Part shown: positions 9,460 through 39,752 of the stretch, one piece after another
Position numbering within the stretch: the stretch's first letter is position 1
Layout: every line of letters begins with the position of its first letter
Source: a bacterium
GTDB lineage: Bacteria; Patescibacteriota; Saccharimonadia; CAILAD01; BJGX01
NCBI GenBank assembly: GCA_029778565.1
Contig: JAKOQC010000187.1
Location: forward strand, 2,615-66,614
Reading direction: 5' to 3'
Length of the DNA stretch: 64,000 nt
The notes under the pieces: model-generated
What the model saw: the letters and a program-made list of their open reading frames with translations, nothing else
The model's database searches: none
Told to the model about the DNA's origin: nothing
Made by a program: the position numbers and the translations under genes

Positions 9460-9893
9460 TAAAGACCTACTCACAAAAACCAGCCGAAGTAGACCAGAAA
9501 TGGTATATTATTGATGCCAAAAACCAAACTCTAGGACGACTAGCTACGCAAATTGCTACACTCTTAACCGGTAAAGACAAACCAAGCTATAGCCCACACG
9601 TAGTTGGTGGTGATGTGGTTGTGGTTATTAATGCAAAAAATATTGCAGTTACCGGTAAAAAATTAACCGATAAGATGTATTATCGCCACTCCGGATATCC
9701 GGGTGGTATTAAAGAAGAAAGTCTTGCAGAAGCTCTAGAAAAGCATCCAAATCGAGTTATTGAACATGCTGTGGCCGGTATGTTGCCTAAGAACAAATTG
9801 CAGGCAGTAATGTTAAAAAATCTTAAGGTTTATGCAGACGATCAGCATCCCCATGCCCCACAAAAACCAATTGAATTGAAACTGGAGAAATAA
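9456..9893 (+). CDS. rplM: 50S ribosomal protein L13
   Basis: 145 aa; KWYIIDAKNQTLGRLATQIA... Confidence 0.9.
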   Translation: MIKTYSQKPAEVDQKWYIIDAKNQTLGRLATQIATLLTGKDKPSYSPHVVGGDVVVVINAKNIAVTGKKLTDKMYYRHSGYPGGIKEESLAEALEKHPNRVIEHAVAGMLPKNKLQAVMLKNLKVYADDQHPHAPQKPIELKLEK

Positions 9894-16403: not shown

Positions 16404-16540
16404 GTAATATAATGATACCAGTATTTCGGTCCTTTTTTATAGTATTACTATGAATGCTGAAATATCGCTGAATGGTTAGCATAACTATAAATATTAATCA
16501 TTTTCTGATAAAATGAGCTAGTTCGACAGATAGAATATCG

Positions 16541-16586
16541 TTAGCCATTAAACCAATTACACTAAAGGGGTGTAGCTCAGTTGGCT
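16541..16586 (+). repeat. direct repeat copy A (leader plus first 21 nt of tRNA-Trp)
   Basis: 46 nt identical, bar one T/C, to 16667..16712: TTAGCCATTAAACCAAT(T/C)ACACTAAAGGGGTGTAGCTCAGTTGGCT. Confidence 0.8.
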
Positions 16587-16636
16587 GTCGAGCGTTAGTG
16601 AGCACAATAGATAATTCTAGTCGGTATCCGACGCTC
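16566..16636 (+). pseudogene. degenerate tRNA-Trp remnant
   Basis: Starts as tRNA-Trp (AGGGGTGTAGCTCAGTTGGCT) then diverges. The anticodon arm is replaced by an insertion and a GTCGG-tat-CCGAC hairpin, with no T-arm or CCA. Confidence 0.5.
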
Positions 16637-16666
16637 AAAGATAGAACATTCAAAAAACAAATATTA

Positions 16667-16712
16667 TTAGCCATTAAACCAATCACACTAAAGGGGTGTA
16701 GCTCAGTTGGCT
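16667..16712 (+). repeat. direct repeat copy B (leader plus 5' part of the intact tRNA-Trp)
   Basis: See copy A. Confidence 0.8.
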
Positions 16713-16768
16713 AGAGCGTCGGTCTCCAAAACCGAAGGCCGCGGGTTCGACTCCTGCCACCCCTGCCA
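16692..16768 (+). tRNA. tRNA-Trp (anticodon CCA), CCA encoded
   Basis: Acceptor AGGGGTG/CACCCCT. Loop CTCCAAA. T-arm GCGGGTTCGACTCCTGC. Confidence 0.85.
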
Positions 16769-18340
16769 TTGTGAAATTACAGCCGAAATAGCGGCTGTTT
16801 TCGCTTTTATAGAAGGGAATTCTTTAGTTCTAACCAACTCTAATTCTTTCTCCAGTGCGGGGTATGCTTTTGCGATTGGTACAAGCCATGGATGAGGTGT
16901 AATAGTAAGTTTTTTATCTTTTAGTTGTAATTCTGTGCCCAGTTCTAACATTATTTGTTTGCGCTTTGAGCTATCACCAAATTTGAAGTTTGAATGTGCG
17001 TGAGTGGCAAAATTAATGGCAGTTGTAGCAATATCCGCCCAATCTTTAGAGCGTTGCTCTGTATCTCTAAGCTTTATAGTTAATTGTTCAATCTTTTCTT
17101 CTAGTATTTCTTTCTTCTCAATAAATTTGGATTCTGTTATTAAATTGCGTGTTGCTAAGTCTATTAAGCTATCTAATTGGTTTTGGGCGGCCAATATGCT
17201 CTTATGTTGCATTTCATATATATCAGTTCTTTTATTTGATTCCTCACTATTTAATCTCTGGATTACCTTAAGAGCCCATTGTTCGAACTCTGGCAAAATA
17301 GTATACTCCGATAATATTTTCTCCATTTCTATTTCAAGTACAGATTCTTCAATAAATCTAGTTTGACTACAGTTGAGCTTTCGTTTTTTCCGAGTACAAT
17401 GGTAATACTTATAAGTCTTAAGTTTGTTACTTGATTTTATTAGCTTAGTTTTTTCTTCAGCGGTAATTGCACATCCACATTCTCCACATTTCATTAAACC
17501 TGAATAGGCGAAGTCATGGCTACTTGCTCTTGGCTTTCCTTTTTTACCCAGTATAATTTGCGCTCGATCGAATTCTTCTAAAGAAATCATAGCTTTGTGC
17601 TTGCCCTCGTAAACAACATCATTTCGCACAAGTTTGCCTGCATAAAATTGATTAGTAAAAATTTTGTAAACAGTGCTTAAGGCAATTGGTTTACCACCAC
17701 TTTTTCTGTGCTTTGGCGTAATGTAACCCCATTCATTTACAGCAATGTCCCAAATTTTATGCACGGGTAATTGATCAATTAATAAAAGATCCCACATTCT
17801 TCTTATAAGAGGGAACCTAACCTTATCAATGTCGGCCATTTTAGTTACTAGGTTATTTGTATATCCTTGAGGTACAAGGCCCGTAGGGCCTCCCAAGGAG
17901 AGTTTTGTGTCATTGCCGCGCTTTACATCCCTACTAAGCTTTGCAGACTCGTATTGCCCCTGCGAAAGTGCCATTTGTAACATCCAAATGCCTTCTGGTG
18001 AGTTATCAAAATGGTAAGAACAAAATTTGAGATCTTTGATAATTGATTTTCTAACCCTAGATGTTATTCGGGCTGCATCTACTTCGTTACGAGATAAGCG
18101 ATTAGGGTGCCATGCAATAATAGCATCGGCTTCGCCATTATCAATAACCTCTAGCATTTGGTAAAAATCATCTCTAACATCTTCTGTAAACGCAGATTTG
18201 TGTTCCTCAAAGTGTTTTACAATGTGTAAATCAGAAAACTGCTCTTGTATCTTTTGTTTTTGCGCATATGTAGATAGAACCTGTCTTTCAGGATCTTCTG
18301 TTGATTTGCGCGTATAAGCTATGTATCGTAGTTTTTTCAT
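16703..18340 (-). CDS. large serine recombinase (resolvase/invertase catalytic domain, recombinase domain, zinc ribbon, coiled coil)
   Basis: N-terminal YTRKSTEDPERQ with the Ser nucleophile. Central recombinase domain. CGECGC...YYHCTRKK zinc ribbon. The start is taken at MKKLRYIAYTRKST (18340). The 3' end runs antisense across tRNA-Trp. Confidence 0.85.
   Translation of the reverse strand: MKKLRYIAYTRKSTEDPERQVLSTYAQKQKIQEQFSDLHIVKHFEEHKSAFTEDVRDDFYQMLEVIDNGEADAIIAWHPNRLSRNEVDAARITSRVRKSIIKDLKFCSYHFDNSPEGIWMLQMALSQGQYESAKLSRDVKRGNDTKLSLGGPTGLVPQGYTNNLVTKMADIDKVRFPLIRRMWDLLLIDQLPVHKIWDIAVNEWGYITPKHRKSGGKPIALSTVYKIFTNQFYAGKLVRNDVVYEGKHKAMISLEEFDRAQIILGKKGKPRASSHDFAYSGLMKCGECGCAITAEEKTKLIKSSNKLKTYKYYHCTRKKRKLNCSQTRFIEESVLEIEMEKILSEYTILPEFEQWALKVIQRLNSEESNKRTDIYEMQHKSILAAQNQLDSLIDLATRNLITESKFIEKKEILEEKIEQLTIKLRDTEQRSKDWADIATTAINFATHAHSNFKFGDSSKRKQIMLELGTELQLKDKKLTITPHPWLVPIAKAYPALEKELELVRTKEFPSIKAKTAAISAVISQWQGWQESNPRPSVLETDALAN
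16778..16810 (+). terminator. hairpin (ACAGCCG-aaata-GCGGCTGT) plus T-tract after tRNA-Trp
   Basis: Read directly. A near-identical stem recurs at 20486. Confidence 0.5.
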
Positions 18341-18481
18341 TGTTATACCAAAATGGACGGCTCTGGTAGATCCAATCACATACTGAAACAGCTGTTTACT
18401 GGCAGAGCCGCCCATTAAGGCAGCAAAAAAGCCGTTTCAATGTATTATGTTTTGGATCTACATAACCATTATCCTCCTATG

Positions 18482-18613
18482 TTATTCATTTATCAATTCG
18501 ATCATCCTAATCATATGTTCAGCCTGCTCATTTGCTTCCTGCAAAGATAGAACAGTGCCATATTCTCTATAGTGTATGTCTATGTATTTCTCTAATTCTT
18601 CGTCCGTTAACAT
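18482..18613 (-). CDS. hypothetical 43-aa protein (MLTDEELEKYIDIHYREYGTVLSLQEANEQAEHMIRMIELINE)
   Basis: Hand-translated. Its ATG lies 2 nt after the stop of the upstream RHH gene. It is acidic and helical, so a recombination directionality factor is one possibility. Confidence 0.3.
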   Translation of the reverse strand: MLTDEELEKYIDIHYREYGTVLSLQEANEQAEHMIRMIELINE

Positions 18614-18615
18614 TG

Positions 18616-18783
18616 TTATTCTCCAGTGTCATCGTTTGCGTATATATCTAAGTTATTAACATCGATATAATTTGCTACAAGTTCATTAATAATTTGTGTC
18701 ATAGAAACATTCGTATTAGCTGAATGTATTTTTAATATTCTATGTAGCTCTGTATTTAACCTAGCGTATTTGCTCTTTTTCAT
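18616..18783 (-). CDS. ribbon-helix-helix (CopG/Arc-like) DNA-binding protein, 55 aa
   Basis: Hand-translated: MKKSKYARLNTELHRILKIHSANTNVSMTQIINELVANYIDVNNLDIYANDDTGE. A basic beta-strand is followed by two helices. RBS GGAGAAAG lies 6 nt upstream. Confidence 0.5.
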   Translation of the reverse strand: MKKSKYARLNTELHRILKIHSANTNVSMTQIINELVANYIDVNNLDIYANDDTGE

Positions 18784-18799
18784 TGTTCTTTCTCCTTAC

Positions 18800-19035
18800 A
18801 GTGTTTATTTGTTGTGCCTAATAGCTCCACTGAGTAGCTACCCTCCCTTCTCTCCAATCCCTCTGCCCGAATGCGGGTGTCTAGTGCCTGCCCTATCAAA
18901 AGGTGATAGTTCCTGCCAGTACCCATTCGGTATAGAGTAAATTGTCGGTTGGTCGGTTCGTAGTCCCTGGAATTAACCACCTGCTACGACTCAGGCCCGA
19001 AGCGATTACTCGCTCTATAACCTAGTATGTATAGG
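18800..19035. other. GC-rich, hairpin-dense non-coding block (candidate structured RNA or long leader)
   Basis: Clearly higher G+C than its flanks. Several perfect local hairpins (CCCG-aatg-CGGG; CTATCA-aaagg-TGATAG; AGCGA-ttact-CGCT). No convincing ORF. Lies upstream of the RHH gene on the minus strand. Confidence 0.25.
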
Positions 19036-19244
19036 GCTTGACAAGTTGTTAGGTTAATTTGGAAGAAAATTAATAAATAGTAAAAATACCTTTATAAAGG
19101 CAAAATAAATACACATAAGCCTCTAACTGTCAGTTTTTTTTTTATGTTAATTTATATCTGTTAAGATATAAAAAGTAGTAATTATATATGTTCTAAAAAG
19201 CATATATTTTACAGAGTGAAAGGGTACTAATAGGTGTACTAGGA

Positions 19245-19273
19245 GAATAAAAAAAGCCCCCAGTAGGGGCTAG
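19245..19273 (-). terminator. rho-independent terminator for the 19317..20033 gene
   Basis: AGCCCC-cagta-GGGGCT stem with an A8 tract on the plus strand (T-run on the minus strand). Confidence 0.6.
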
Positions 19274-19316
19274 CAAAATTTATTGACTGGACTATTAGAT
19301 CAACCTACATCAATGG

Positions 19317-20033
19317 CTAGTTCTTAACATAGAAGTCCATAAGTTTTCCACCGCGATATCTTAAGTCCATATTAACGCTATCCGCTGGCCAGACTTCGTA
19401 ATTGATGATGTAATGGCCTGCTACAGGAAAATCTAAAGCCCCACCACAAACTGGCACGCCAGCGTCTGGATAAACTGTAGGGTTTGCCGAGAAACTACCA
19501 CCAGGTATCGAGAAGGTTCCATCTGGACCAGCAGTTATGGAACAATCCTTTAGTGGTAGAAATGTGCCTGTTACATTATCCTTAGCGACTATAGATAGTA
19601 CTAGGCCTGCAGGCAGAGGGCAGGGATTGCTCGCTGTTCCACAGGTTGTTATATTCTTCTGGTAAATATAAACTCCCCAATTTGTTACTTTTGGAGCTGG
19701 GGCGGAAGGTGATGGCTGTGCCTGATTACCACCCTTATTTGAACTAGTACTTGCAGAGCCTGTATTTGAACCCGTACTAGAACTAGGATTGGTGCTATTT
19801 GGATCTGGGTTATTAGCTAATAATGATTTGTCTTGAGAATTATTAGAAGTATCACCTCCAGATTTGTTTTCTGCATTCTGCTTATTGATAGAGGCGTGAG
19901 TATGATTTCGTCTAGCGTAAATTGCGCCAGTAGTTAATAATGCGGCTACTGACACCAACCCTATAAAAGCGAGCGACGATAAAATAAGATGACCTTTTGC
20001 AGAAACAATGACCTTACTAATAAATGTTTTCAT
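19317..20033 (-). CDS. membrane-anchored hypothetical protein with S/T/N/G-rich linker and Cys-containing C-terminal domain
   Basis: N-terminal TM helix, about 80 aa of low-complexity linker, then a domain of about 120 aa with 6 Cys. No family recognised. Confidence 0.55.
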   Translation of the reverse strand: MKTFISKVIVSAKGHLILSSLAFIGLVSVAALLTTGAIYARRNHTHASINKQNAENKSGGDTSNNSQDKSLLANNPDPNSTNPSSSTGSNTGSASTSSNKGGNQAQPSPSAPAPKVTNWGVYIYQKNITTCGTASNPCPLPAGLVLSIVAKDNVTGTFLPLKDCSITAGPDGTFSIPGGSFSANPTVYPDAGVPVCGGALDFPVAGHYIINYEVWPADSVNMDLRYRGGKLMDFYVKN

Positions 20034-20280
20034 GTTAGTTGAATCTTGCTCTATTTCTTATTATTTGTCAATATACGTACTCCTTCTATGCCTTGTTAAT
20101 AACCAGTTGACAAGTGTGCTAAAATAACATACAATCTTGATGATATAAAAATCAAAACATCCCTCAAGGATGTTTTTTATATTCAAACAAGAATAAATTA
20201 GTTGTACAATAATGTTTACATACGTAGTATTACGCTGTAATATATAAGCATAAGCATATAAGCTTACTGGCAGGTGATAC

Positions 20281-20310
20281 AAAAAAAGCCCCTAATAGGG
20301 GCTTTTTTTG
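20281..20310. terminator. bidirectional hairpin A7-AGCCCC-taat-AGGGGCT-T7
   Basis: Read directly. Same stem family as 19255. No obvious gene ends here. Confidence 0.4.
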
Positions 20311-20319
20311 TTAAGAAGA

Positions 20320-20348
20320 TTGTAAGCATATCCGAAATGTGATATTAT
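20320..20348 (+). promoter_or_regulatory. sigma70-like promoter TTGTAA-N17-TATTAT upstream of the tRNA-like gene
   Basis: Hexamers and 17-nt spacer read directly. The hexamers end about 35 nt before the tRNA 5' end. Confidence 0.4.
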
Positions 20349-20383
20349 GGTTCCAATCTTGTGGTATCTGGCGTCTCATTGGG

Positions 20384-20459
20384 GCGTTAGTACAGCGGCA
20401 GTACAGGTAGCTTTATCACCTGCCAGACAGGAGTTCGAATCTCCTACGCTCCACCAAGT
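20384..20459 (+). tRNA. non-canonical tRNA-like gene (76 nt, CCA encoded, aberrant anticodon arm)
   Basis: Acceptor GGGGCGT/ACGCTCC. D-arm GTAC-agcggca-GTAC. T-arm AGGAG-ttcgaat-CTCCT. The only good anticodon-region helix (CAGGT/ACCTG) encloses a 9-nt loop AGCTTTATC and collides with the D-stem, so no 7-nt loop with a standard anticodon can be drawn. Confidence 0.5.
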
Positions 20460-20485
20460 GGGGCCGCCCAGACTCACGAGGTAGC

Positions 20486-20512
20486 AAACAGCCGCGAAAG
20501 CGGCTGTTTTGC
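20486..20512 (+). terminator. terminator hairpin AAACAGCCGC-gaaa-GCGGCTGTTT plus T-run
   Basis: Read directly. Paralogous to the hairpin after tRNA-Trp. Confidence 0.55.
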
Positions 20513-20621
20513 ATATAAAAGTATAATTGCTATAAAATTATGTCTACCAATCAGATTGGCCTATTGTTAAGGTTCTATGTGTGCCTTATAATCTACATAT
20601 AACAAATTTAATTTTTATCCA

Positions 20622-21269
20622 ATGATATATTGTACTAACTGTGGTAAACAGATTGATGATGATAGTAAATTTTGCCCTTTTTGTGGTGCCGCGGTAGTAG
20701 AAAATGAACAGGCAGACGTAGAAGATAACACTCAACAGAATAGTCCGCTTTGGGATAAGTTTGTCGAGATTAGAGATGCCAAGGGTGAGAAGCGAGAGAA
20801 ATACCTAAACTTTATTCCAGATGCCACCTGGACAGTTATGAAAAACATGCGTGAGAACGTATTAGACGAGCTGAAACAGGCATATCCTGAAGAAATCGGC
20901 AATTTGCCTTATAAAGACGTAGAAATTATTCTTAGCTTCTTCTCAATTGCCCAAAGAGATGGATATATAGTAAAACTATCAAACAGGCTTCTCAAAGACT
21001 CAAGAATCAAAAAAGCCAAAGACTTAACCGTAGACCATCTTGTCTCTCGTTGGCAGAGAGAGCTTGATATGGATGTTGAAAAAGTTACTGAGCCAGAAGA
21101 GCTAAACATATTGAATCTTATTAGTGTGTTTGATATTGACCAAGTTCTAGAGGACGAGAAAATAAAAGAACTTCCAAATAAAGTTATTGAGTCAATCAAA
21201 ACGGACTTTTATAAACTGACTTACTGGGGGTTCATTTTGGCACTTGTTGAGGAGAAACTTCAAAAATGA
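20622..21269 (+). CDS. zinc-ribbon-domain protein (N-terminal CxxCG...CPFCG), cytoplasmic
   Basis: 215 aa. First of four translationally coupled genes with ATGA overlaps. Confidence 0.55.
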   Translation: MIYCTNCGKQIDDDSKFCPFCGAAVVENEQADVEDNTQQNSPLWDKFVEIRDAKGEKREKYLNFIPDATWTVMKNMRENVLDELKQAYPEEIGNLPYKDVEIILSFFSIAQRDGYIVKLSNRLLKDSRIKKAKDLTVDHLVSRWQRELDMDVEKVTEPEELNILNLISVFDIDQVLEDEKIKELPNKVIESIKTDFYKLTYWGFILALVEEKLQK

Positions 21270-21868
21270 CATCAAAGTATTGTCCAAAGTGTGGTGCTAA
21301 ACTTGCACCTGGTGCAAAGTTTTGTGCTAAATGTGGGCATCCAGTTAAGCAAGAGGAAACAAACGTCGTAAAAAAAGAGCCAGAAGACACCAAGTCAGTT
21401 GCTAGTTCCACGGATAGTACCCAGAATAAGTATGAAGGTGTAAATGGCTGGCTGTTGTTATATACAATTGGTCTAGTAGCAGGCATTGGATTCAGTATCT
21501 TTAACTTTATATCTTATGTTGCATTGGCATTAAAGTTTGACGTAAATGCTGAGGGTGCGAGTGTCGTTATTGGAATATACCTTATACTTGGTTTTGGTTT
21601 CGCAATTTTGCTTGCTATCCAAAGCATTGCACTAGTTCAAATTATCCGTAGGAAGAAGTCAGCTAAGATTTTTGTAGTAATATCATTGGTTTACGGTTTT
21701 CTATTATATCTTGCTGATGCTGGGATTGCGGGCTGGGCGTACGAGCTTGCAAAAGAGACCGCTCCATCTGACCTTTATGGTGGTGCGGGAAGAGCATTTT
21801 TCGCTTTAGCTATTTGGCTACCTTACTTCTTGGTTTCGAAACGAGTTAAACAAACCCTAGTAAAATGA
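21266..21868 (+). CDS. zinc-ribbon-domain membrane protein
   Basis: 200 aa. N-terminal CPKCG...CAKCG followed by 4 to 5 TM helices. Confidence 0.55.
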   Translation: MTSKYCPKCGAKLAPGAKFCAKCGHPVKQEETNVVKKEPEDTKSVASSTDSTQNKYEGVNGWLLLYTIGLVAGIGFSIFNFISYVALALKFDVNAEGASVVIGIYLILGFGFAILLAIQSIALVQIIRRKKSAKIFVVISLVYGFLLYLADAGIAGWAYELAKETAPSDLYGGAGRAFFALAIWLPYFLVSKRVKQTLVK

Positions 21869-22479
21869 AAAAATGTGGTCACTGTGGGGCAGAAAACCCC
21901 GATTCTGCCAAATTCTGCAAGAAATGTGGCGAGTCTCTGGATGATGCTGTAGAGGGTGAGATTGTTGATGCCCCAAAAGCAATAAAGAAAGAGAGCAAAG
22001 TAAAGACCATCTTTGAAGGTATAGGCGGCTTCCTGATTATGTTGGTTGTCTTTGCGGCACTAATTTTTCTAATCTTTGCATTTATAAAAGGTGCAACTTT
22101 CCTTAGTGAAAAGCTGTTGCCGATTCTAGTAAAAATAGTTATTCCACTTTTAATAATAGAGTTATGTGTTGTTTTACCTTTAGCCTTATCAAAAAAACTA
22201 AAAGGTACAGCGGGAGTAATCGTTTATATTGGCTCATATGTATATGGCTTAACAGCATGGTTAATAGGCTTTATTGTGACCTTATACTATTGGGGAGTTT
22301 TCTGGGTGATAGTCGGCCTTTTCATAGCTGGAATTGGGGTAGCGCCTTTTGGGATAGTGGCAGGAGGCCTTAATGGCCAGTGGGCAGTAGTATTTAACTT
22401 AATTGTACTAATTGTGTTAACCTACGGCTCCAGAATGCTTGGTGCGAAGCTAGCCGAAGATGCTGACGAAGGTGTATGA
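21865..22479 (+). CDS. zinc-ribbon-domain membrane protein
   Basis: 204 aa. N-terminal CGHCG...CKKCG followed by multiple TM helices. Confidence 0.55.
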   Translation: MKKCGHCGAENPDSAKFCKKCGESLDDAVEGEIVDAPKAIKKESKVKTIFEGIGGFLIMLVVFAALIFLIFAFIKGATFLSEKLLPILVKIVIPLLIIELCVVLPLALSKKLKGTAGVIVYIGSYVYGLTAWLIGFIVTLYYWGVFWVIVGLFIAGIGVAPFGIVAGGLNGQWAVVFNLIVLIVLTYGSRMLGAKLAEDADEGV

Positions 22480-22775
22480 AGAAGACAGACACAACTCTTT
22501 GGGTATCTATTGGAATAATTGCATCTGTAATTGTTATTATCTTTGTTGTCGTTATTCTAGTAATTGCGAGCAAAGGGTCAAGTACTGATTCGATAACCGA
22601 TACTTGTTCAAATCCACAAATTAAGGGCAACATTAGCAAATCTGGTGAAAAAATCTATCACAAGCCTGGTGATATGTATTACTCACAAACCGAGATAAAC
22701 GAAAGTGCTGGTGAAAAAATGTTTTGTACTGAAAAAGACGCCCAAGACGCTGGCTGGCGACATTCTAAGATTTAA
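22476..22775 (+). CDS. small membrane-anchored protein with conserved C-terminal module (GNISKSGEKIYHKPGDMYY...FCTEKDAQDAGWR)
   Basis: 99 aa: TM helix plus a 60-aa domain. From memory, the motif resembles a short module found at the C-termini of some Firmicutes secreted nucleases. This is unverified. Confidence 0.45.
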   Translation: MKKTDTTLWVSIGIIASVIVIIFVVVILVIASKGSSTDSITDTCSNPQIKGNISKSGEKIYHKPGDMYYSQTEINESAGEKMFCTEKDAQDAGWRHSKI

Positions 22776-22839
22776 GAAATAAAAACATTAGACTATTTTT
22801 TGGTATACTAATGTTAATAATACTTATCTAGGAGAGTGT

Positions 22840-23760
22840 ATGGATAAAGAAAACCATAAGTTAGAAAAGGCTGAAGATAAACAAGTAAAACTAGATGAAC
22901 AGGGGAATAAGTCTGAAGATGGAATTGATAAACTTCAAACGAAACCATGGTATAAAAAAACCTGGGTAATAATACTAGCCTTGGTATTATTTTTCCCGTT
23001 AGGCCTTTTGCTGACTTGGCTATCCGATTGGAAATTATCAATGAAAATACTCGCAACTGGTATAGTGATTGTCTTATTTTCACTACTTATTTACTCAAGC
23101 ATCACAGCAAAACCTCTTATTACAGTTAATAGTCCGAATAATGGTCAAGAAATAGAAACAGAAAGTATTGATATTACTGGTAACGTCAATCCCGCTTGGT
23201 CCAAGCTCCAAGTTAACGATATGAACGTAGAATTAAAACCCGATGGTACGTTTAGTTCCAATGTTAAATTGCAACAGGGACAAAATACAATCAAATTATC
23301 AGCAATAAACTCTGGTAAGACAACAGAGTTAACAGTAGGGGTTAAACGATTAACTGCTGCAGAAATCGCAGCTCGAAAAGTTGCTGAAACTCCAAAACAA
23401 GCAACCCCAACTCCCACAGAAAAAGAACTAAGCTACAGCGTAATCAGTGAAAATAAACGAGGAACCTTAAATCGAGTAGAGGTTTATACTACGGAAACAT
23501 CAGATGACAGATTGATTAAACTAAATGATAAACTATTAGATCAATATAAACCTGGCCTAACCATACTATATATTGATTACTTTAATGATAAAACGGTTGC
23601 AAGCGATTATTTTAGTAAGCAAAACGACCCGAATATTAGTGAAGCAGAGAAGGATCAACTCTATACACATTACATTGCTAACTTGGTCTATAATACTAAT
23701 AGTGGGTTAAAAGAATTAGTTAGACAGGGTGATAATCAGAAAGTATTGAAAACATACTAA
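22840..23760 (+). CDS. membrane-anchored hypothetical protein with Ig-like beta domain
   Basis: 306 aa. Basic N-terminus, two TM helices, then a beta-rich segment (ITVNSPNNGQEIETESIDITGNV...) and an alpha/beta C-terminal domain. Confidence 0.5.
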   Translation: MDKENHKLEKAEDKQVKLDEQGNKSEDGIDKLQTKPWYKKTWVIILALVLFFPLGLLLTWLSDWKLSMKILATGIVIVLFSLLIYSSITAKPLITVNSPNNGQEIETESIDITGNVNPAWSKLQVNDMNVELKPDGTFSSNVKLQQGQNTIKLSAINSGKTTELTVGVKRLTAAEIAARKVAETPKQATPTPTEKELSYSVISENKRGTLNRVEVYTTETSDDRLIKLNDKLLDQYKPGLTILYIDYFNDKTVASDYFSKQNDPNISEAEKDQLYTHYIANLVYNTNSGLKELVRQGDNQKVLKTY

Positions 23761-23849
23761 GCCAGTACTTGTGGCTTTGTTAGTATAATTGCGTTTCTAA
23801 CTTCTTCTATAGTGCCCTGCCAAAGTACTAAAGTACTTATGCTTAAATC

Positions 23850-24356
23850 ATGAAAAATAATACAACGGTTAAATGCCCAAGTTGCGGGAAAGAAGTAATT
23901 GGCCTCGAGCGTGAGGTTCGTACTGTATATCCAGACGATGCTGCAGAGATTATCAAAGATGACCCAGACAGCAAAAAGATTGAAACGTGGGGCCCAGATT
24001 TTATACGTCTCGGCAAACAACGCTACTTTGTACGCGTTATGTTACCAGTAAAATTAGATGTTGGTCATGAGTTTAGGTTTGGCGTTTGGATGGAGGTTGG
24101 TCAAGAGACAATTACTGATTTAAAAAAGGTCTGGAATAGCTCTGAATATGTAAAGGTTAGCTTTGAAGGAATACTTGCAAACGCTGTTCCCCCATGGGGA
24201 GATACAATCCTTGGTGCTGAATGTAAGGCAGAAGTTCGTGATGCTAAAAGTGTACCCTTTATTAAATCTTCTAATAATTTAGAGCTTTCAGAAATACTAA
24301 GCAAGCCTACGTCAGTTCATGAAATAGAAACAGTTATAGCGGATGTTTGGAAATAA
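23850..24356 (+). CDS. DUF2199-like protein (N-terminal CPSCG zinc knuckle)
   Basis: 168 aa. The pattern VKCPSCGKE...RFGVWMEV recalls the DUF2199 family. Assigned from memory. Confidence 0.45.
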   Translation: MKNNTTVKCPSCGKEVIGLEREVRTVYPDDAAEIIKDDPDSKKIETWGPDFIRLGKQRYFVRVMLPVKLDVGHEFRFGVWMEVGQETITDLKKVWNSSEYVKVSFEGILANAVPPWGDTILGAECKAEVRDAKSVPFIKSSNNLELSEILSKPTSVHEIETVIADVWK

Positions 24357-24505
24357 TTCCTAAACTGTTAAAATACATATAGTAGTCCTAATATTGTCCA
24401 AAACGCCGTTCCAAGATAAAACCAGCATATGCCTGGTTTTTTATTACTTTTATGGCAATAAATTGCAAACAAAAATATGTTAAGATATAAGTTAATATAA
24501 GCTTT

Positions 24506-30028: not shown

Positions 30029-31348
30029 ATGAAACCCCAAAATAATTCAATACTGCGAATTTATGGCATATTTATTGCTGTATCGATAATTTGTTTTGGG
30101 GGAATAATTGCAGGATTTGTATTTCAGAGCCAAGTAATTTTTTGGCTGTCATTATTGTTTTTCGCAACACTGGGGATTGTGCGCATACTTATTATTATTC
30201 ATTCCTTACAATTAGCCAACAAAAACCAAGAGCAGCGTAACAATAACCTCAGTAAAGAACAGGCACAGCTACAAGCTCTTATAAATAGTCTAGGAGAGGC
30301 AATCTTAGCGGTTAATACAAGTGGCGAGGTTACGTTGTTTAACGCTGCAGCACTAGAACTGATTGACTCGCACACAGAGCTTATAGGTAAAAAAATCAAT
30401 TCGGTTTTTCCCCTAATTGATAGTAAAAACCAGCCAGCGGATGTACTCGATTCGGTAATGACAGCAGGCAAAATTAGTGTACGTGATGATTTACGTGTGG
30501 TGCTACCCAAGGCAGATCCAATCGAAGTGTATACCATGGTTACACCAATTAATCAGTCTGGTGAGATAGTTGGGGCAATTATTCTGGCGCGCGATGTTTC
30601 GCAACAAAAGTCATTACAAGCCCAAAAAGACGAATTCTTAAGCGTGGTTAGCCACGAATTACGCACACCAGTAGCGATAGTTGAGGCTGATTTGTCTACA
30701 GTACTTTTACCGGGGTATGCCGATTTACCAGAAAAAGCGAAAAAACTCCTTCATTCTGCAGCTCAGAATATTACGTATCTTTCGGGGCTGTTACAAGATA
30801 TTTCCGATCTTTCTCATGCGGAGCGACATATGTTGGATGTTGAATTACAAACTGTTGACATCCAAAAACTTGCCAAAGAGTTAGCTGATGATTTTTCTAC
30901 TCGCGCTCAAAAAGCCAAGCTCGAATTTAAACTTGATATTGATCCAAATACACCATCAATCGTTAGTTCGACGCAGAGAATTACTGAGATTATTGTTAAC
31001 TTTTTGACCAATGCTATTAAGTATAGTAGCGGAGTTGGAAAAACAGTTACATTACATGTAGGGCCATCTAACCAACTCCCGGGTGGAGTGGTTGTTGAAG
31101 TGAAAGATGAGGGTTTGGGTATTTCAGAGGCTGATCAAGCCAAATTATTTACCAAATTCTTTCGATCTAGCAGTGACGCCGTACAGGCAATAAAAGGTAC
31201 CGGTATGGGGCTATATATTACCACTCAGCAGGCGAAAAAAATTGGTGGAGAAATACACCTAGAAAGTCAGCTAGGAAAAGGAAGTACGTTTTACCTCGTA
31301 TTACCAAGCAAGGTACCGGCTAACCTCATTAGTAGGACGATGAGTTAA
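30029..31348 (+). CDS. sensor histidine kinase (2 TM, PAS, HisKA, HATPase_c)
   Basis: H-box VSHELRTPV. G-boxes KDEGLGIS and GTGMGLYI. Confidence 0.8.
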   Translation: MKPQNNSILRIYGIFIAVSIICFGGIIAGFVFQSQVIFWLSLLFFATLGIVRILIIIHSLQLANKNQEQRNNNLSKEQAQLQALINSLGEAILAVNTSGEVTLFNAAALELIDSHTELIGKKINSVFPLIDSKNQPADVLDSVMTAGKISVRDDLRVVLPKADPIEVYTMVTPINQSGEIVGAIILARDVSQQKSLQAQKDEFLSVVSHELRTPVAIVEADLSTVLLPGYADLPEKAKKLLHSAAQNITYLSGLLQDISDLSHAERHMLDVELQTVDIQKLAKELADDFSTRAQKAKLEFKLDIDPNTPSIVSSTQRITEIIVNFLTNAIKYSSGVGKTVTLHVGPSNQLPGGVVVEVKDEGLGISEADQAKLFTKFFRSSSDAVQAIKGTGMGLYITTQQAKKIGGEIHLESQLGKGSTFYLVLPSKVPANLISRTMS

Positions 31349-33360
31349 AATGCCTCGGTTCTATTTTGCCAACGTGGTTTTAAGAGTTCATACTCTATCA
31401 TAGAACCAAAAAGTAGTAATAACTCTATGGTGCAGCCCAGCGGAAACAGGAGAGTAGAGACAATGCTCTGCCGAGAAGAGATCGTAATAATTAATCGATT
31501 AATATAACTTAATAAAACTGCAGCCGCTAGAATAAATACACCCTCATACATACCAAATATTAAGAGTATAACAAGCAGCAGGGTGGGTAATACAAATGCA
31601 ATAAAGCCGCCCAAAAGCAAACACACCGTAAGTGGCATAGAAAAATGTAGAGCTGGGTAAAATCGGCGAAGATTACCACTGACAATCAAACGACTACTGG
31701 CATGATTCTGACTCGTAGCTACATCAGACCCAAGATAAAAACCGGTATCGAGTTTTTTCATTTTAGCTGCCGCAGCTAGATCAAAATCTTCTAAAGGACT
31801 CTTGCGAACTAGAGAGAATCCTCCCATGGCTTCAATGCTCGAGCGTAAAAAAGCTACCAAGCTCGAGCTAGCATTGGCGACTTTCGGATGGGTACGGGCA
31901 AGTAGGGCAGAAGGATATGCTCCAAGCATAAAGAAATGATTTTGACTAAGGATAAGTTGTTGGCCAAGACTCTTGTTTTGATCTGCCGGCAAGACCGAAA
32001 CCAAACTTTTCTTTTGTTCATTAATAAGTCCTACCAAAATAGAGAGAGCTTTTGGTAGAAGTACAGTATCTGCAGAAATTAAGACTATTACTTCACCACT
32101 AGCCTTTTCTAGTAACGCCTCGGCAGCCCAAGAGTGGATTGTCCAGCCTGGCTTGCGAGGTGGAATATCAATAATTTGCAAACGGGGGTCTTGAAATCCT
32201 TCAAGTATTTTTGCGGTATTATCACTCGAGCCAAGATCGGCCATAATAATTTCAAAGTTAGGATAATCTTGTCCTACTGCTGCAAGCAAAGTAGAAGATA
32301 TATTATCTGCTTGGTTGTAGGTGTAGGCAAGAATAGATACCATGGGGAGTTCGCTGTGCGGTTTGGTTTTTGGCCGGCGGAATTTTACTAAATTATATAT
32401 AGTAAGAACTAATTGGAGTATAAACAAACAGAGCAAAAAGCCACCAAAAAGAGTTATATATTTATCACTCACATTAAAGGGGTCATAGACATATAAGAGT
32501 AGTTGAGATAAAAAGAATCCAACCAAAATATTAAGCCACATAAAATTCTTCCACGCTCTCCGAAATTGCATACTGTGGGCATCAGATCGGAACTTATAAA
32601 AAAAGCTCATATTTAGTGCATAGAGCGAGAGAAAGATAGCGGCAACAAGGCCATAAGGGAAATATGCAATAGCTACAATAAGACAGGTTAGAACGTAGAG
32701 CCAAAAGCTGTAACGGGTTGTTCTTTTAGCACCCATTACCGTGGCAATTGAGGCAATATTGGCAGCTCTATCTGGCTTGATATCTTGAATAGAACCCATC
32801 GCTTGCGATGCCATACCCCATAACATAAAGGCTATAATTGCTGGCCAATACATATTGGTTGTATTACCATACAGCAATCCAAAGATGAGCGGGCTTACAA
32901 AATGCAAAGCAGAGTTAATAGAATCTAAAAACGGAATTTCTTTAAACCTGAATGGTTTGGCAGAGTAGGTAAAACAAAAAAGAACAGTTAAGCCCAACAT
33001 TATTCTGGCGACGTTGCTGCTTGAATACAGCAAGTAACCAAGAAATGGAATATTCGCTGCAGCTATTACCAGCCACAGGGCTTGATGTTTTTTCTTATCA
33101 ACCAGACCTCCTTCGACAGAATTTTTCCGTGGATTTTTAATATCCGATTCGTAGTCATATATATCATTGATACCATAGAGTAGTAAATTGTAAGCAAACA
33201 AAAAATAGAGTGTGCCAAGAATAAATTCAAGATTGATAGTTCTGGCCGCCAGTAAATATCCAACCGCAAATGGTGCAGCAGTATTTATCCAGCTAACCGG
33301 ACGACTGGTAGCAAAAATCTCACGTATGGTAAGCTGAGAGTTATTTTTTTCGCTCTTCAT
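31345..33360 (-). CDS. fusion protein: UbiA-family prenyltransferase (lycopene elongase CrtEb-like) plus family-2 glycosyltransferase (CrtX-like) plus C-terminal TM helices
   Basis: N-terminal 290 aa carries NDIYDYESD (NDxxDxxxD) and DIKPD, with about 8 TM helices. Residues 340-560 show GT2 motifs (VSILAYTYNQ...EIIMADLGSSDNT). It is last in the crtYe-crtYf-crtEb order. Confidence 0.6.
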   Translation of the reverse strand: MKSEKNNSQLTIREIFATSRPVSWINTAAPFAVGYLLAARTINLEFILGTLYFLFAYNLLLYGINDIYDYESDIKNPRKNSVEGGLVDKKKHQALWLVIAAANIPFLGYLLYSSSNVARIMLGLTVLFCFTYSAKPFRFKEIPFLDSINSALHFVSPLIFGLLYGNTTNMYWPAIIAFMLWGMASQAMGSIQDIKPDRAANIASIATVMGAKRTTRYSFWLYVLTCLIVAIAYFPYGLVAAIFLSLYALNMSFFYKFRSDAHSMQFRRAWKNFMWLNILVGFFLSQLLLYVYDPFNVSDKYITLFGGFLLCLFILQLVLTIYNLVKFRRPKTKPHSELPMVSILAYTYNQADNISSTLLAAVGQDYPNFEIIMADLGSSDNTAKILEGFQDPRLQIIDIPPRKPGWTIHSWAAEALLEKASGEVIVLISADTVLLPKALSILVGLINEQKKSLVSVLPADQNKSLGQQLILSQNHFFMLGAYPSALLARTHPKVANASSSLVAFLRSSIEAMGGFSLVRKSPLEDFDLAAAAKMKKLDTGFYLGSDVATSQNHASSRLIVSGNLRRFYPALHFSMPLTVCLLLGGFIAFVLPTLLLVILLIFGMYEGVFILAAAVLLSYINRLIITISSRQSIVSTLLFPLGCTIELLLLFGSMIEYELLKPRWQNRTEAF

Positions 33361-33646
33361 TTTGTATAAATCTTTCCAGTAAGGCCGGGCCTAGTAAAAC
33401 AACGACCAACAAATAGCCAAAGTCTTCGATTGGTATCGAGCCAATTCGAATGCCCAAAACCAAGTTCTTATTATACTCTACAATTGGTAATGCAGTCAGG
33501 TAAGTATCGAAAATCAGCATTGCGATTGTTAGTATCAGCACTAATAACAACAAAACATTTCGCTTGGGTAGTTGAAGTTTTAGCAATAAAAAAAGTGATA
33601 CAGAAAAGAGTAGAAGAATAATAATAAGACTACTATATTTAAACAT
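33341..33646 (-). CDS. lycopene cyclase-domain protein (heterodimeric CrtYf/CrtYd-like subunit)
   Basis: 101 aa, three TM helices, and the PxE(D/E) motif IPIEDFGY. Confidence 0.55.
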   Translation of the reverse strand: MFKYSSLIIILLLFSVSLFLLLKLQLPKRNVLLLLVLILTIAMLIFDTYLTALPIVEYNKNLVLGIRIGSIPIEDFGYLLVVVLLGPALLERFIQNEERKK

Positions 33647-33974: not shown

Positions 33975-34028
33975 ATTAGTAATTATACGCTACCTAACTT
34001 TGTATAAGAGACGTGTTATGATAATTAA

Positions 34029-35516: not shown

Positions 35517-35522
35517 TAAATT

Positions 35523-36599: not shown

Positions 36600-36600
36600 T

Positions 36601-39681: not shown

Positions 39682-39752
39682 CGTGGGACCCGCTTAAAAA
39701 TGCCGGGGCTAGTACCACAAAGGAGATAATTATGGCAGAAGCAAAAAAAGCA
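39682..39752 (+). repeat. leader repeat 1 (about 71 nt; includes SD and first 7 codons of rplK)
   Basis: CGTGGGACCCGCTTAAAAATGCCGGGGCTAGTACCACAAAGGAGATAATTATGGCAGAAGCAAAAAAAGC. Confidence 0.75.

What the first reader, a model, noticed from the sequence alone, without database searches (positions are those of the whole stretch)
16533..16810. tRNA-Trp locus with a degenerate upstream duplicate of its own leader and 5' half
Forty-six nucleotides (26 nt of leader plus tRNA positions 1-21) occur twice, 126 nt apart. The upstream copy continues as a decayed tRNA whose anticodon arm is replaced by an insertion and a new hairpin. The downstream copy is an intact tRNA-Trp whose 3' half lies inside the C-terminal coding region of a large serine recombinase on the opposite strand. 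This is the footprint expected when an integrative element targets a tRNA gene and supplies a replacement gene segment, possibly more than once.
Basis: seen in the sequence. Interest (0 to 1): 0.6.

Follow-up and report, generated by a model that had tools for sequence, protein, structure and literature searches.

The report
Recombinase island docked on tRNA-Trp end
A small mobile island in a Saccharibacteria (TM7) genome has inserted at the last three bases of the tRNA-Trp gene using a serine recombinase whose own gene contains the insertion site, while the half-copy of the tRNA just upstream is a separate, older structure that also occurs in relatives lacking any recombinase.

Summary
A 53-nt leader plus tRNA 5' segment occurs twice, 126 nt apart. 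tRNA-Trp is intact, and a 570-aa large serine recombinase (LSR) ORF runs antisense through 66 nt of it.

Comparison with a related genome (L005) shows a 7,645-bp insertion (16769-24413) exactly after the tRNA's CCA. It does not lie inside the tRNA and does not end at 20.4 kb.

The LSR belongs to a large Patescibacteria clade. In most members the ORF reads antisense into a tRNA 3' end, in frame with CCA read as Trp. Members with no tRNA at the ORF's 3' end (checked in L008, L140) instead carry a conserved tail (W-x-G-V-V-x-D-V-R-T). That tail motif occurs only twice in the window, at 23822 and 24413, each abutting a CCA. So attP lies inside the recombinase gene, and integration swaps the enzyme's tail. 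The tRNA is not rebuilt; it only receives a new terminator, encoded antisense within the LSR gene.

The upstream duplicate occurs without a recombinase (L005) and is absent from a near-identical strain (L002). A tRNA-Pro locus elsewhere (L011) has the same GGCT|GTCGAGC junction in a tandem array. I read it as the scar of a different, D-loop-targeting element. A plain tandem duplication remains possible.

The parts
16534..16586 (+). Upstream copy: native leader (33 nt) plus tRNA-Trp positions 1-20, ending ...GTTGGCT. It is non-functional and is best read as an attL-like junction or pseudo 5' fragment.
   Evidence: The repeat is shown. The copy is intact in the window and L005 but decayed in L007 (6 of 20 changed) and L013 (5 of 20). 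Rfam does not recognise it as tRNA.
16587..16659 (+). Spacer. It begins with a 23-nt junction-specific stretch, GTCGAGCGTTAGTGAGCACAATA. The rest aligns, with indels, to native tRNA-Trp upstream DNA (GATAA..CTAGT..hairpin GTCGG-TAT-CCGAC..AGATAGAA).
   Evidence: The hairpin block is native upstream sequence in L014. Identity to L007 rises from 83% to 94.5% exactly at 16586/16587.
16660..16691 (+). Second leader (leader'), directly preceding the functional tRNA-Trp.
   Evidence: It is 96-97% identical in L005 and L007, although their own native leader is unrelated.
16692..16768 (+). Intact tRNA-Trp(CCA). Its 3' end, CCCTGCCA (16761-16768), is the identity block shared with the element's attachment site.
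16703..18415 (-). Large serine recombinase gene (likely start at 18340, giving 545 aa). The last 22 codons (WQGWQESNPRPSVLETDALAN) are the antisense reading of the host tRNA.
   Evidence: Pfam domains, PHROG integrase family phrog_95 at 1e-64, distant match to the solved A118 integrase structure, translation.
16779..16808 (+). Intrinsic terminator (hairpin ACAGCCG-AAATAG-CGGCTGT followed by TTTTCGCTTTT) for tRNA-Trp. The element supplies it, and it is encoded antisense within the LSR codons K-A-K-T-A-A-I-S-A-V.
   Evidence: Terminator scan. The same geometry is present in L135, L008 and L140. Codon covariation E2/S6 versus A2/A6 is shown.
16769..23822 (.). Element E1 (7,054 bp), the most likely current mobile unit. 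It carries the LSR, an Arc-like ribbon-helix-helix protein, a 238-aa protein, tRNA-Ile(TAT), three zinc-ribbon membrane proteins, a 99-aa protein and a Glucodextran_B-domain protein.
   Evidence: Most of it is 98-99.5% identical to L007, while host genes are about 81% identical. In L007 it ends at the same CCCTGCCA and is followed by a second LSR.
23757..23822 (-). Coding sequence for the recombinase's tail in the excised, circular form (WQGTIEEVRNAIILTKPQVLP*), ending in CCCTGCCA. This is the P arm of attP and the attR core of E1.
   Evidence: It is one of only two matches to the family tail motif in the six-frame translation of the window. In L007 it is read through by the second LSR.
23823..24413 (.). 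Remnant of an older element (E0): a DUF2199 gene (23850-24356) plus an orphan recombinase tail (24363-24413, minus strand, WNGVLDNIRTTICILTV*) ending in CCA.
   Evidence: Host DNA resumes at 24414 by alignment with the empty site in L005.
24418..24440 (+). Original host terminator of tRNA-Trp, now displaced 7.6 kb downstream. The polysaccharide deacetylase gene follows at 24506.

Best explanation
Two unrelated things sit at this tRNA-Trp gene of a Candidatus Saccharibacteria genome.

(A) The island (shown). A 7.6-kb block of foreign DNA is inserted exactly after the tRNA's 3' CCA. It consists of element E1 (16769-23822) and the stump of an older element (23823-24413). E1 moves by a large serine recombinase whose attP lies inside the last ~20 codons of its own gene.
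- In the excised circle, the ORF would end with a conserved tail encoded by the element's far end.
- After integration, the ORF instead reads antisense into the tRNA, with CCA read as a Trp codon, and acquires a meaningless tRNA-derived tail.
- The tRNA is left intact because the crossover lies within CCCTGCCA at its very end.
- The element replaces only the tRNA's terminator, using a hairpin plus T-run that is encoded antisense within the recombinase gene.

Whether the tail swap controls the direction of recombination or the enzyme's stability is inferred only, not tested.

(B) The upstream half-copy. It was not made by this recombinase (shown). Its origin is inferred: it is most likely the scar of a different integrative element that cut tRNA genes in the D-loop (GGCT|A) and carried its own complete tRNA-Trp with promoter. 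After integration, recombination between the two identical tRNA 3' portions would delete the rest of that element. What remains is host leader, tRNA 1-20, a 23-nt element end (GTCGAGC...), the imported promoter/leader, and then the tRNA. Repeated cycles would produce arrays like the one at a tRNA-Pro gene in locus L011.
For: For (A):
- The empty site in L005 reads tRNA-Trp CCA, then AATTAACCAGC...terminator, then the deacetylase gene. The window aligns with it once 16769-24413 is removed.
- L007, the same species as L005 (96.8% identity in the flanking gene), carries E1. E1 is 98-99.5% identical to the window's copy although host genes are 81% identical. This indicates horizontal transfer.
- The geometry-derived pattern W-x4-[DEG]-[SL]-N (antisense CCA, acceptor stem and T-loop) is present in the tails of 86 of 119 close homologues and 45 of 139 50%-cluster representatives. 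It occurs 0 times in 124,000 aa of the rest of these proteins.
- Direct DNA confirmation comes from tRNA-Trp (window, L007, L009) and tRNA-Asn (L135).
- The two homologues checked that lack a tRNA at their 3' end (L008, L140) carry the tail W.G[VI][VI].[DE]VRT.
- That motif occurs only twice in all six frames of the window, at 23822 and 24413, each abutting a CCA.
- A predicted terminator lies inside the LSR ORF, with compensatory codon pairs across the family.

For (B):
- L005 has the tandem without any recombinase.
- L002, 99.7% identical to the window in the flank, lacks it.
- LSR-occupied tRNAs in L009 and L135 lack it.
- Identity between the window and L005/L007 jumps at 16586/16587 from ~83% to 95-100%. 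The closer relative L013 has a more diverged junction, and L014 has a diverged upstream region.
- L005 and L007 carry a window-type leader' next to an unrelated native leader.
- The same junction GGCT|GTCGAGC, with a 24-nt junction-specific stretch, recurs in 3.1 tandem 107-bp units upstream of tRNA-Pro in L011.
- There is a precedent for elements that break a tRNA gene and carry their own copy: tRNA-dependent lysogeny (PMC10865867).
Against: Against (A):
- No circular form or exact attP sequence of E1 was observed. The 'free-form' tails are inferred to mark unintegrated elements. L008 is not demonstrably circular.
- It is not settled whether E1 ends at 23822 or 24413.
- Tail classification rests on sequence patterns, and the covariation count is not corrected for phylogeny.

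Against (B):
- No intact D-loop-targeting element and no orphan tRNA-Trp 3' fragment were found.
- Only one additional locus (L011) shows the junction motif.
- The spacer is partly homologous to native upstream DNA, which a plain tandem duplication would also give.
- The decayed upstream copies in L007 and L013 show the structure is old in some lineages, so recombination or gene conversion must be invoked under any model.
- Similarity of the 23-nt stretch to tRNA positions 21-43 is not above chance.
Confidence: 0.6

Rival explanations
1. The neighbouring serine-recombinase element integrated inside tRNA-Trp and supplied a replacement segment. The upstream duplicate and the tRNA/recombinase overlap are both direct footprints of that event.
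For: A recombinase gene overlaps the tRNA, and a 5' duplicate lies 126 nt upstream. The block from 16587 through E1 is shared at high identity with L007.
Against: L005 has the duplicate but no island. The island's junctions are CCA|TTGTGA and CCA|AGATAA at the tRNA's 3' end. The window holds no displaced tRNA 3' fragment. The tail motif places attP at the CCA codon. LSR islands at other tRNAs have no 5' duplicate. The D-loop junction shows no similarity to the LSR's att arms.
Confidence: 0.05
2. The upstream copy is a plain tandem duplication of about 100 nt (promoter, leader and the 5' part of the tRNA), produced by slippage or unequal exchange in an ancestor. It was then shaped by decay of the upstream unit, gene conversion, deletion between the repeats (L002), and homologous-recombination transfer between lineages. 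No mobile element was involved.
For: The spacer aligns with native upstream sequence (GATAA..CTAGT..CGAC..AGATAGAA). The hairpin block is native in L014. The upstream copy is decayed in L013 and L007, as expected for an old pseudogene. L002's leader looks like a recombinant of the two window copies. No candidate recombinase was found.
Against: It does not explain why the junction GGCT|GTCGAGC and a 23-24-nt junction-specific stretch recur at an unrelated tRNA-Pro locus. It does not explain why identity to the real tRNA drops abruptly at the same D-loop position in every copy. It does not explain why L005/L007 carry a window-type second leader at 96% identity while coding flanks are 81% identical. 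It requires crossovers within about 20 nt.
Confidence: 0.28
3. The duplicated unit is maintained because it is functional, for example as a second promoter or a structured leader RNA (a tRNA 5' half-like RNA, or a segment antisense to tRNA positions 22-30) that regulates tRNA-Trp expression or processing.
For: The spacer plus leader' is far better conserved between the window and L005/L007 than the neighbouring intergenic DNA. The spacer contains CCGACGCTC, complementary to tRNA positions 22-30. The L011 unit contains 15 nt antisense to tRNA-Pro positions 18-32.
Against: Predicted folds are not more stable than shuffled sequence (z-scores -1.5, -0.95 and +0.9). No Rfam family matches. No promoter-like site was detected in the unit on the + strand. 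The nearly identical strain L002, as well as L006 and L014, do without it. Conservation does not track phylogenetic distance (L013 and L014 are diverged).
Confidence: 0.07

Closest known systems
Large serine recombinases / serine integrases of phages and integrative elements (A118/LI integrase, phiC31, Bxb1)
   Same: It has the same domain set, Resolvase, Recombinase and zinc ribbon. It has a catalytic-serine motif, YTRKST. It gives a distant sequence match to the solved A118 integrase. The identity between attP and attB is short. The gene sits at the end of the element, next to the attachment site.
   Different: Identity to any phage integrase in the GenBank phage collection is at most 27%. 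The target is the 3' end of a tRNA gene; according to the reviews read here, tRNA genes are the habitual targets of tyrosine integrases (PMC9262239). attP lies inside the enzyme's own ORF, so integration exchanges its C-terminal ~20 residues. An antisense terminator for the target gene is built into the coding sequence.
Integration-dependent immunity of mycobacteriophages (BPs, Brujita; Broussard et al. 2013, as reviewed in PMC9262239)
   Same: attP lies within an element-encoded protein-coding gene. Integration at the 3' end of a host tRNA gene changes that protein's C-terminus, and the tRNA stays functional.
   Different: In those phages the gene is the repressor and the enzyme is a tyrosine integrase. 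The removed part is an ssrA-like degradation tag, and a 35-bp common core rebuilds the tRNA 3' end. Here the gene is the serine recombinase itself. The common core is 3-8 nt. The swapped tail has a conserved W.G-VV-x-DVRT motif and no -LAA-type ending.
tRNA-dependent lysogeny (Guerrero-Bustamante & Hatfull 2024, PMC10865867)
   Same: For the upstream half-copy, the proposed element breaks a host tRNA gene without rebuilding it and brings its own tRNA of the same isotype.
   Different: No such element is present here, only a 126-bp putative scar. The known cases use tyrosine integrases in actinobacteriophages. Loss of the element by recombination between the tRNA copies, and the build-up of tandem scars, are my inference.
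Classical tRNA-gene genomic islands (Williams 2002 classes; Islander/TIGER)
   Same: It is an island at a tRNA gene that is sporadically present among close relatives, carries its integrase at the tRNA-proximal end, and occurs in tandem arrays with remnants.
   Different: Those islands use tyrosine integrases and are flanked by direct repeats of the tRNA 3' portion (tens of nt) that rebuild the gene. Here the only repeat is CCCTGCCA / CCA.
SSV-type archaeal integrases (attP inside the int gene)
   Same: The attachment site is embedded in the integrase ORF and the target is a tRNA gene. I state this from general knowledge and from the review listed, which I did not read in detail.
   Different: They are tyrosine recombinases, and integration splits the int gene into two distant parts. 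Here only the extreme C-terminal tail is exchanged, and all recognised domains stay intact.

Membership tests
Large serine recombinase (serine integrase) | N-terminal resolvase-type catalytic domain with a serine nucleophile | tested here: met
   PF00239 at E=1.6e-17, residues 32-171. The motif Y-T-R-K-S-T-E-D-P-E-R-Q is visible in the translation.
Large serine recombinase (serine integrase) | C-terminal recombinase domain and zinc-ribbon domain | tested here: met
   PF07508 at E=1.8e-6 and PF13408 at E=4.2e-9. PHROG integrase phrog_95 at 1.3e-64. Match to A118 integrase chains 4kis/6dnw at E~1.5e-5.
Large serine recombinase (serine integrase) | Short att sites that share only a central crossover dinucleotide, with no long flanking direct repeats | tested here: met
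   The junctions share only CCCTGCCA (E1) or CCA (outer junction). The window holds no second copy of the tRNA 3' half. The exact dinucleotide could not be determined.
Large serine recombinase (serine integrase) | Catalyses attP x attB integration, and excision requires a directionality factor | not testable with these tools
   Indirect evidence only: an occupied site (window, L007) versus an empty site (L005) in related genomes. No directionality factor was identified. An Arc-like 55-aa protein lies next to the LSR.
Classical tRNA-targeting island that rebuilds the tRNA (tyrosine-integrase type) | The island is flanked by direct repeats of the tRNA 3' portion, one of them displaced to the far end | tested here: not met
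   The 25-nt tRNA 3' probe with up to 3 mismatches matches only once in 64 kb.
Classical tRNA-targeting island that rebuilds the tRNA (tyrosine-integrase type) | Tyrosine recombinase encoded next to the tRNA | tested here: not met
   The only recombinase in 16.7-24.4 kb is of the serine type.
Integration-dependent immunity system | attP lies inside the repressor gene, and integration removes an ssrA-like tag | tested here: not met
   attP lies in the recombinase gene. The tails end ...PQVLP and ...ICILTV, with no -LAA-like tag. The analogy is in logic only.
tRNA-dependent lysogeny-type element (applied to the upstream half-copy) | The host tRNA is interrupted and not rebuilt at the junction | tested here: met
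   The upstream copy stops at tRNA position 20 and continues with unrelated sequence. It is not recognised as tRNA.
tRNA-dependent lysogeny-type element (applied to the upstream half-copy) | The element carries its own tRNA of the same isotype | tested here: inconclusive
   In L005/L007 the functional tRNA-Trp has a foreign (window-type) leader and sits in a block of 95-100% identity. This fits an imported gene, but homologous recombination could also produce it.
tRNA-dependent lysogeny-type element (applied to the upstream half-copy) | An integrase and the rest of the element lie between attL and attR | tested here: not met
   Only 126 bp lie between the copies. No intact element was found in the scans.

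The most novel reading that the evidence does not exclude
This reading has two parts. First, Patescibacteria host a very large clade of serine recombinases that dock on the CCA end of tRNA genes, with attP embedded in their own coding sequence. Integration would then toggle the enzyme between a form with the conserved 'VVxDVRT' tail and a form with a tRNA-derived tail. That would be a built-in switch of direction or stability, needing no separate factor, combined with a dual-coded terminator. Second, a so far unseen class of D-loop-targeting elements replaces the promoter and 5' end of tRNA genes. These elements would leave 'promoter + tRNA 5' fragment' scars that pile up into arrays.
Probability: 0.3. 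Interest if true: 0.75.

Novelty: new variant of a known kind. Interest (0 to 1): 0.55.

Why it matters
- **Unusual target for a serine integrase.** Serine integrases are valued genome-engineering tools and are generally described as targeting protein-coding genes or intergenic sites. A large natural clade aimed at the universally conserved 3' ends of tRNA genes would broaden the known target repertoire. It could also give candidate integration tools for Patescibacteria, which are hard to manipulate genetically.
- **A possible self-contained switch.** Embedding attP in the enzyme's own ORF means the integrated and free states encode different proteins. This is a simple, testable way to make recombination state-dependent.
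- **Annotation.** Hundreds of 'recombinase' ORFs in databases carry spurious tRNA-antisense C-termini. These tails mark attL precisely and could be used to map islands automatically.
- **The upstream half-copy.** If it is a scar, mobile elements can overwrite the promoters of essential tRNA genes in reduced genomes.

Tried and rejected
1. I looked for a displaced tRNA-Trp 3' half that would mark an intragenic crossover. There is none in the window.
2. I considered the anticodon-loop motif TCCAAAAC near the right junction (24397-24404) as the crossover. I rejected it because the sequence after it is not tRNA, and because alignment with L005 puts the junction at CCA.
3. I first placed the right junction at 24421. 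I corrected it to 24413 after alignment.
4. I tested whether the upstream copy continues as a decayed tRNA. Its similarity to tRNA positions 21-43 is not above shuffled sequence, and Rfam finds no partial tRNA.
5. I tested for a structured RNA in the 126-nt unit or the L011 unit. The folds are not significantly more stable than shuffles.
6. Exact look-ups of the LSR with two different start codons found nothing. The gene was reached through its homologue P0001 instead.
7. A JGI metagenome scan for the spacer hairpin found nothing. A viral-contig scan with the LSR also found nothing.
8. A degenerate D-loop pattern in viral contigs gave 120 hits, all chance matches in coding DNA. The exact junction has no viral hits.
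9. L010 and L012, from the junction scan, are chance matches in high-GC coding DNA.
10. L008 shows no terminal overlap, so I cannot call it circular.
11. Literature searches for serine recombinases targeting tRNA genes in Patescibacteria, or with attP inside the integrase ORF, found no description. The library is limited, so this is not proof of novelty.
Full report
**1. The observation**

The window carries tRNA-Trp(CCA) at 16692-16768. A 53-nt stretch, made of 33 nt of leader plus tRNA positions 1-20, occurs at 16534-16586 and again at 16660-16712. The two copies are 94% identical and 126 nt apart. The 20-nt tRNA part occurs exactly twice in 64 kb, against 0.01 expected.

A 570-aa ORF on the minus strand (16703-18415) has the three domains of a large serine recombinase (LSR). 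Its last 22 codons are the antisense of the tRNA. The description is therefore correct.

One claim did not hold. The upstream copy cannot be shown to continue as a decayed tRNA. After GGCT it reads GTC GAGCGT, and the sequence that follows is no more similar to the tRNA than shuffled sequence. Rfam sees no partial tRNA there.

**2. Organism and host context**

The left flank encodes a ferric-reductase-like protein, cytochrome b5 and PspC, and carries tRNA-Tyr/Thr/Thr. Relatives of the ferric reductase were found in Candidatus Saccharibacteria metagenome-assembled genomes. Short Logan contigs identical to the window come from SRR15686344.

The relatives used below, with ferric-reductase identity to the window where measured, are as follows.

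| Locus | Identity to window | Notes |
|---|---|---|
| L002 | 99.7% nt in the flank | Near-identical strain |
| L013 | 84% nt | |
| L005 and L007 | 81% nt | 96.8% identical to each other, so one species |
| L014 | 76% nt | |
| L006 | 79% aa | |

**3. Where the foreign DNA is**

In L005, tRNA-Trp is followed after about 90 nt by a terminator and a polysaccharide deacetylase gene. In the window the same deacetylase is at 24506. Removing 16769-24413 makes the window colinear with L005.

- The left junction is ...CACCCCTGCCA|TTGTGAAATT.
- The right junction is ...CGCCGTTCCA|AGATAAAACCAGC.
- Host DNA, including the original terminator at 24418-24440, resumes at 24414.

There is no second copy of the tRNA 3' half. 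The tRNA was therefore neither split nor repaired. The insertion lies at its last three bases.

G+C content of 17-25 kb is 36-39%, against 40-42% in the flanks. The cargo has no phage structural or replication genes. It comprises an Arc-like small protein, three zinc-ribbon membrane proteins, a Glucodextran_B-domain protein and DUF2199.

L007 carries the island with the LSR at 98.4% identity and other parts at 99-99.5%, although host genes are only 81% identical. This indicates recent horizontal transfer. L005, of the same species, is the matching empty site.

**4. Why the recombinase overlaps the tRNA**

The LSR has more than 1,900 relatives at E<=0.001 among the scored word-index candidates. 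It has 1,126 50%-cluster representatives at E<1e-30. Those hits that carry source names are mostly labelled Patescibacteria.

tRNA geometry predicts what an ORF entering a tRNA antisense and in frame with CCA should read. The prediction is W, four residues, [D/E/G] (positions 61-59), [S/L] (58-56), then N (55-53). This exact pattern is in the last 70 residues of 86 of 119 full-length close homologues and 45 of 139 representatives. It never occurs elsewhere in these proteins (0 in 124,000 aa).

DNA confirms the arrangement in two cases.
- P0003's gene ends in tRNA-Trp in L009.
- P0010's gene ends in tRNA-Asn in L135, with the same CCA|TTGTGA...hairpin...TTTT arrangement.

A minority of homologues continue after the Trp with a conserved protein motif, W-x-[GS]-[VI]-[VI]-x-[DE]-V-R-T. 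In the two whose DNA I read (L008, L140), no tRNA lies at the gene's 3' end.

I searched the six-frame translation of the whole window for that motif. It occurs only twice, both on the minus strand and both starting at a CCA.
- At 24413, the island/host junction, it reads WNGVLDNIRTTICILTV*.
- At 23822 it reads WQGTIEEVRNAIILTKPQVLP*.

Joining either end to 16769 continues the LSR reading frame exactly. This is the expected signature of an attP lying inside the 3' end of the recombinase gene. The circle would encode the conserved tail, and the integrated copy encodes a tRNA-derived tail.

**5. One element or two**

The site at 23815-23822 is CCCTGCCA, identical to the tRNA's 3' end (16761-16768). 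In L007 the shared island ends at exactly this point. It is followed by a second, unrelated LSR (515 aa, 23% identical) whose ORF reads into that same tail. That is the arrangement expected for two elements integrated in tandem.

The closest relative with the VVxDVRT-type tail (P0002, 59% identical) has ACCCCTGCCA at its Trp codon. I therefore take E1 to be 16769-23822 (7,054 bp), with an 8-nt core. On this view 23823-24413, made of DUF2199 plus an orphan tail, is the stump of an earlier element.

The alternative is that the unit is the whole 7,645 bp and 23822 is an internal secondary site. I could not exclude this.

**6. A terminator written into the recombinase gene**

Ten nucleotides after the CCA lies a 7-bp hairpin followed by TTTTCGCTTTT (16779-16808). 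This is a predicted intrinsic terminator on the tRNA strand. On the other strand the same bases encode K-A-K-T-A-A-I-S-A-V.

The same geometry is present in L135, L008 and L140, with different stem sequences. Among homologues with the T-x5-V motif, residue 2 and residue 6 covary as base pairing predicts. The counts are E with S 19 times, A with A 9 times, E with A twice, and A with S never. These counts are not corrected for relatedness.

The element thus replaces the tRNA's displaced terminator. It probably also shields its recombinase gene from convergent read-through; this last point is inferred.

**7. The upstream half-copy is a separate matter**

Its distribution among relatives is as follows.

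| Locus | Upstream tandem | Island or LSR |
|---|---|---|
| L005 | Present: tRNA 1-20, the same spacer and leader', then the tRNA | None within 10 kb |
| L007 | Present, upstream copy decayed | E1 present |
| L013 | Present, upstream copy decayed | Not covered (the contig ends in the spacer) |
| L002 | Absent; the intact tRNA follows the leader directly | Not covered (the contig ends within the tRNA) |
| L006 | Absent | Not covered (the contig ends at the tRNA's 3' end) |
| L014 | No half-copy, but the spacer's hairpin block is native upstream DNA | 5-kb insert with no recombinase |
| L009, L135 | Absent | LSR-occupied tRNAs |

The duplicate is not a by-product of this recombinase.

It is nonetheless not an ordinary old duplication, for three reasons.

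(i) Between the window and L005/L007, identity is 81% in the flanking gene and 83-85% in the intergenic DNA and upstream copy. It jumps to 95-96% in the spacer plus leader' and 100% in the tRNA, and the step falls exactly at 16586/16587. Meanwhile the closer relative L013 has 5 changes in the first 22 nt of its spacer. L014's upstream region matches at only 58 of 89 aligned columns. Conservation therefore does not follow phylogeny. The block seems to have been shared recently between lineages.

(ii) In L005/L007 the second leader is of the window's type, while their own native leader is unrelated.

(iii) A search of JGI metagenomes for the junction 22-mer found one real hit, L011. There, 3.1 tandem 107-bp units lie upstream of an intact tRNA-Pro. 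Each unit consists of a leader, tRNA-Pro positions 1-20 ending GGCT, then GTCGAGC and a 24-nt junction-specific stretch. tRNA-Pro and tRNA-Trp share the D-arm GTAGCTCAGTTGGCTAGAG. No recombinase is adjacent in L011.

**8. Proposed origin of the half-copy (inferred)**

I propose an integrative element that recombines in the D-loop, does not rebuild the tRNA, and carries its own tRNA of the same isotype with promoter. This would be analogous to tRNA-dependent lysogeny (PMC10865867).

After integration, the element's tRNA and the displaced host 3' portion would be 56-nt direct repeats. Recombination between them would remove the rest of the element and leave exactly the 126-bp structure seen here. 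Repetition would build arrays as in L011.

This model explains four things:
- the fixed junction;
- the 23-24-nt element-end stretch;
- the foreign leader;
- the step in identity.

It is weakened because no intact element was found and only one other locus supports it. In addition, a plain duplication followed by gene conversion and homologous exchange can account for most of the features apart from the shared junction motif. I put the scar model at about 0.45, plain duplication at about 0.28, and a functional RNA or promoter at about 0.07. The fold z-scores for the unit (-1.5 to +0.9) give no support for a structured RNA.

**9. Comparison with known systems**

The enzyme is a bona fide large serine recombinase by domain content. 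It is at most 27% identical to phage integrases in GenBank. Reviews I read state that in mycobacteriophages tRNA-overlapping attB sites are used exclusively by tyrosine integrases (PMC9262239).

The closest logical precedent is integration-dependent immunity. There, attP sits in the repressor gene and integration at a tRNA 3' end removes a degradation tag. Here the affected gene is the recombinase itself, the enzyme class differs, and the tail carries a conserved motif rather than an ssrA-like tag.

My literature searches found no description of this clade or arrangement. The searchable library is incomplete, so I rate this a new variant of a known kind.

**10. Caveats**

- Circular forms were not observed.
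- Tail classes rest on sequence patterns.
- Logan contigs are short, and the absence of the tandem in L002 rests on one contig type seen in two samples.
- The functional meaning of the tail swap is untested.

Noticed in passing
window 20381-20456 and 20488-20510: The island carries an odd tRNA called tRNA-Ile(TAT) (Rfam 48.6 bits). Its anticodon stem has a C-C mismatch next to the loop, and position 37 is a C. Thirty-one nt downstream lies a hairpin plus T-run, ACAGCCGCGAAAGCGGCTGTTTT. Its antisense reads K-T-A-A-F-A-A-V, the same motif as the recombinase's 3' end. It looks like a captured tRNA together with a remnant of an old recombinase/tRNA junction. The tRNA is conserved in L007.
   Followed up: partly
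L007 3112-4659 (equivalent to just right of window 23822): In genome GCA_964570715.1 a second, unrelated large serine recombinase (515 aa, 23% identical) lies immediately after E1. It comes with an HTH_17/MerR-like small gene and reads into E1's tail-coding end. This indicates tandem elements at one tRNA.
   Followed up: partly
L011 5720-6176 (JGI Ga0210057_1000004): Upstream of tRNA-Pro(TGG) there are 3.1 tandem 107-bp units of leader, tRNA 1-20 and GTCGAGC. Each unit contains 15 nt antisense to tRNA-Pro positions ~18-32. The first, most upstream copy is interrupted by a 36-nt GC-rich hairpin insertion (CCTACCTGCCCTGTCTGCCGACAGGCAGGCGGCTGG).
   Followed up: partly
L014 5263-9680 (GCA_009613035.1): At the same position, between tRNA-Trp and the deacetylase gene, this relative has a different ~4.4-kb insert. 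It carries a HEAT-repeat protein, a methyltransferase and two glycosyltransferases, with no recombinase and no tail motif. The site is a general hotspot for variable DNA.
   Followed up: no
window 39682-39751 and 40176-40245: A 70-nt stretch, 90% identical, precedes and includes the start codons of both rplK (L11) and rplA (L1). Both proteins begin MAEAKKA, and L1 has a ~100-aa lysine-rich N-terminal extension. This may be a duplicated regulatory leader.
   Followed up: no
window 31345-37440: This is a carotenoid-type gene set in a Saccharibacteria genome. It comprises a UbiA prenyltransferase/glycosyltransferase fusion, two lycopene-cyclase-like small proteins (only the first of the two matched the Pfam family), a phytoene-desaturase-like amine oxidase, a polyprenyl synthetase and a phytoene synthase.
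   Followed up: no
L005 vs L007, about 65 nt spanning the native leader and upstream tRNA fragment (L005 ~9810-9875): Two genomes of one species differ at about 15 of 65 positions in this patch but are nearly identical on both sides. The patch appears to have been exchanged by recombination with a more distant lineage.
   Followed up: partly
window 16703-16768 and homologues P0001-P0388: Many database recombinase proteins of this clade carry C-terminal residues such as ...DSNPRHPA or ...ESNPRPSVLET. These are read-through into tRNA genes. Contigs often break right at the Trp codon, which truncates the ORFs.
   Followed up: yes
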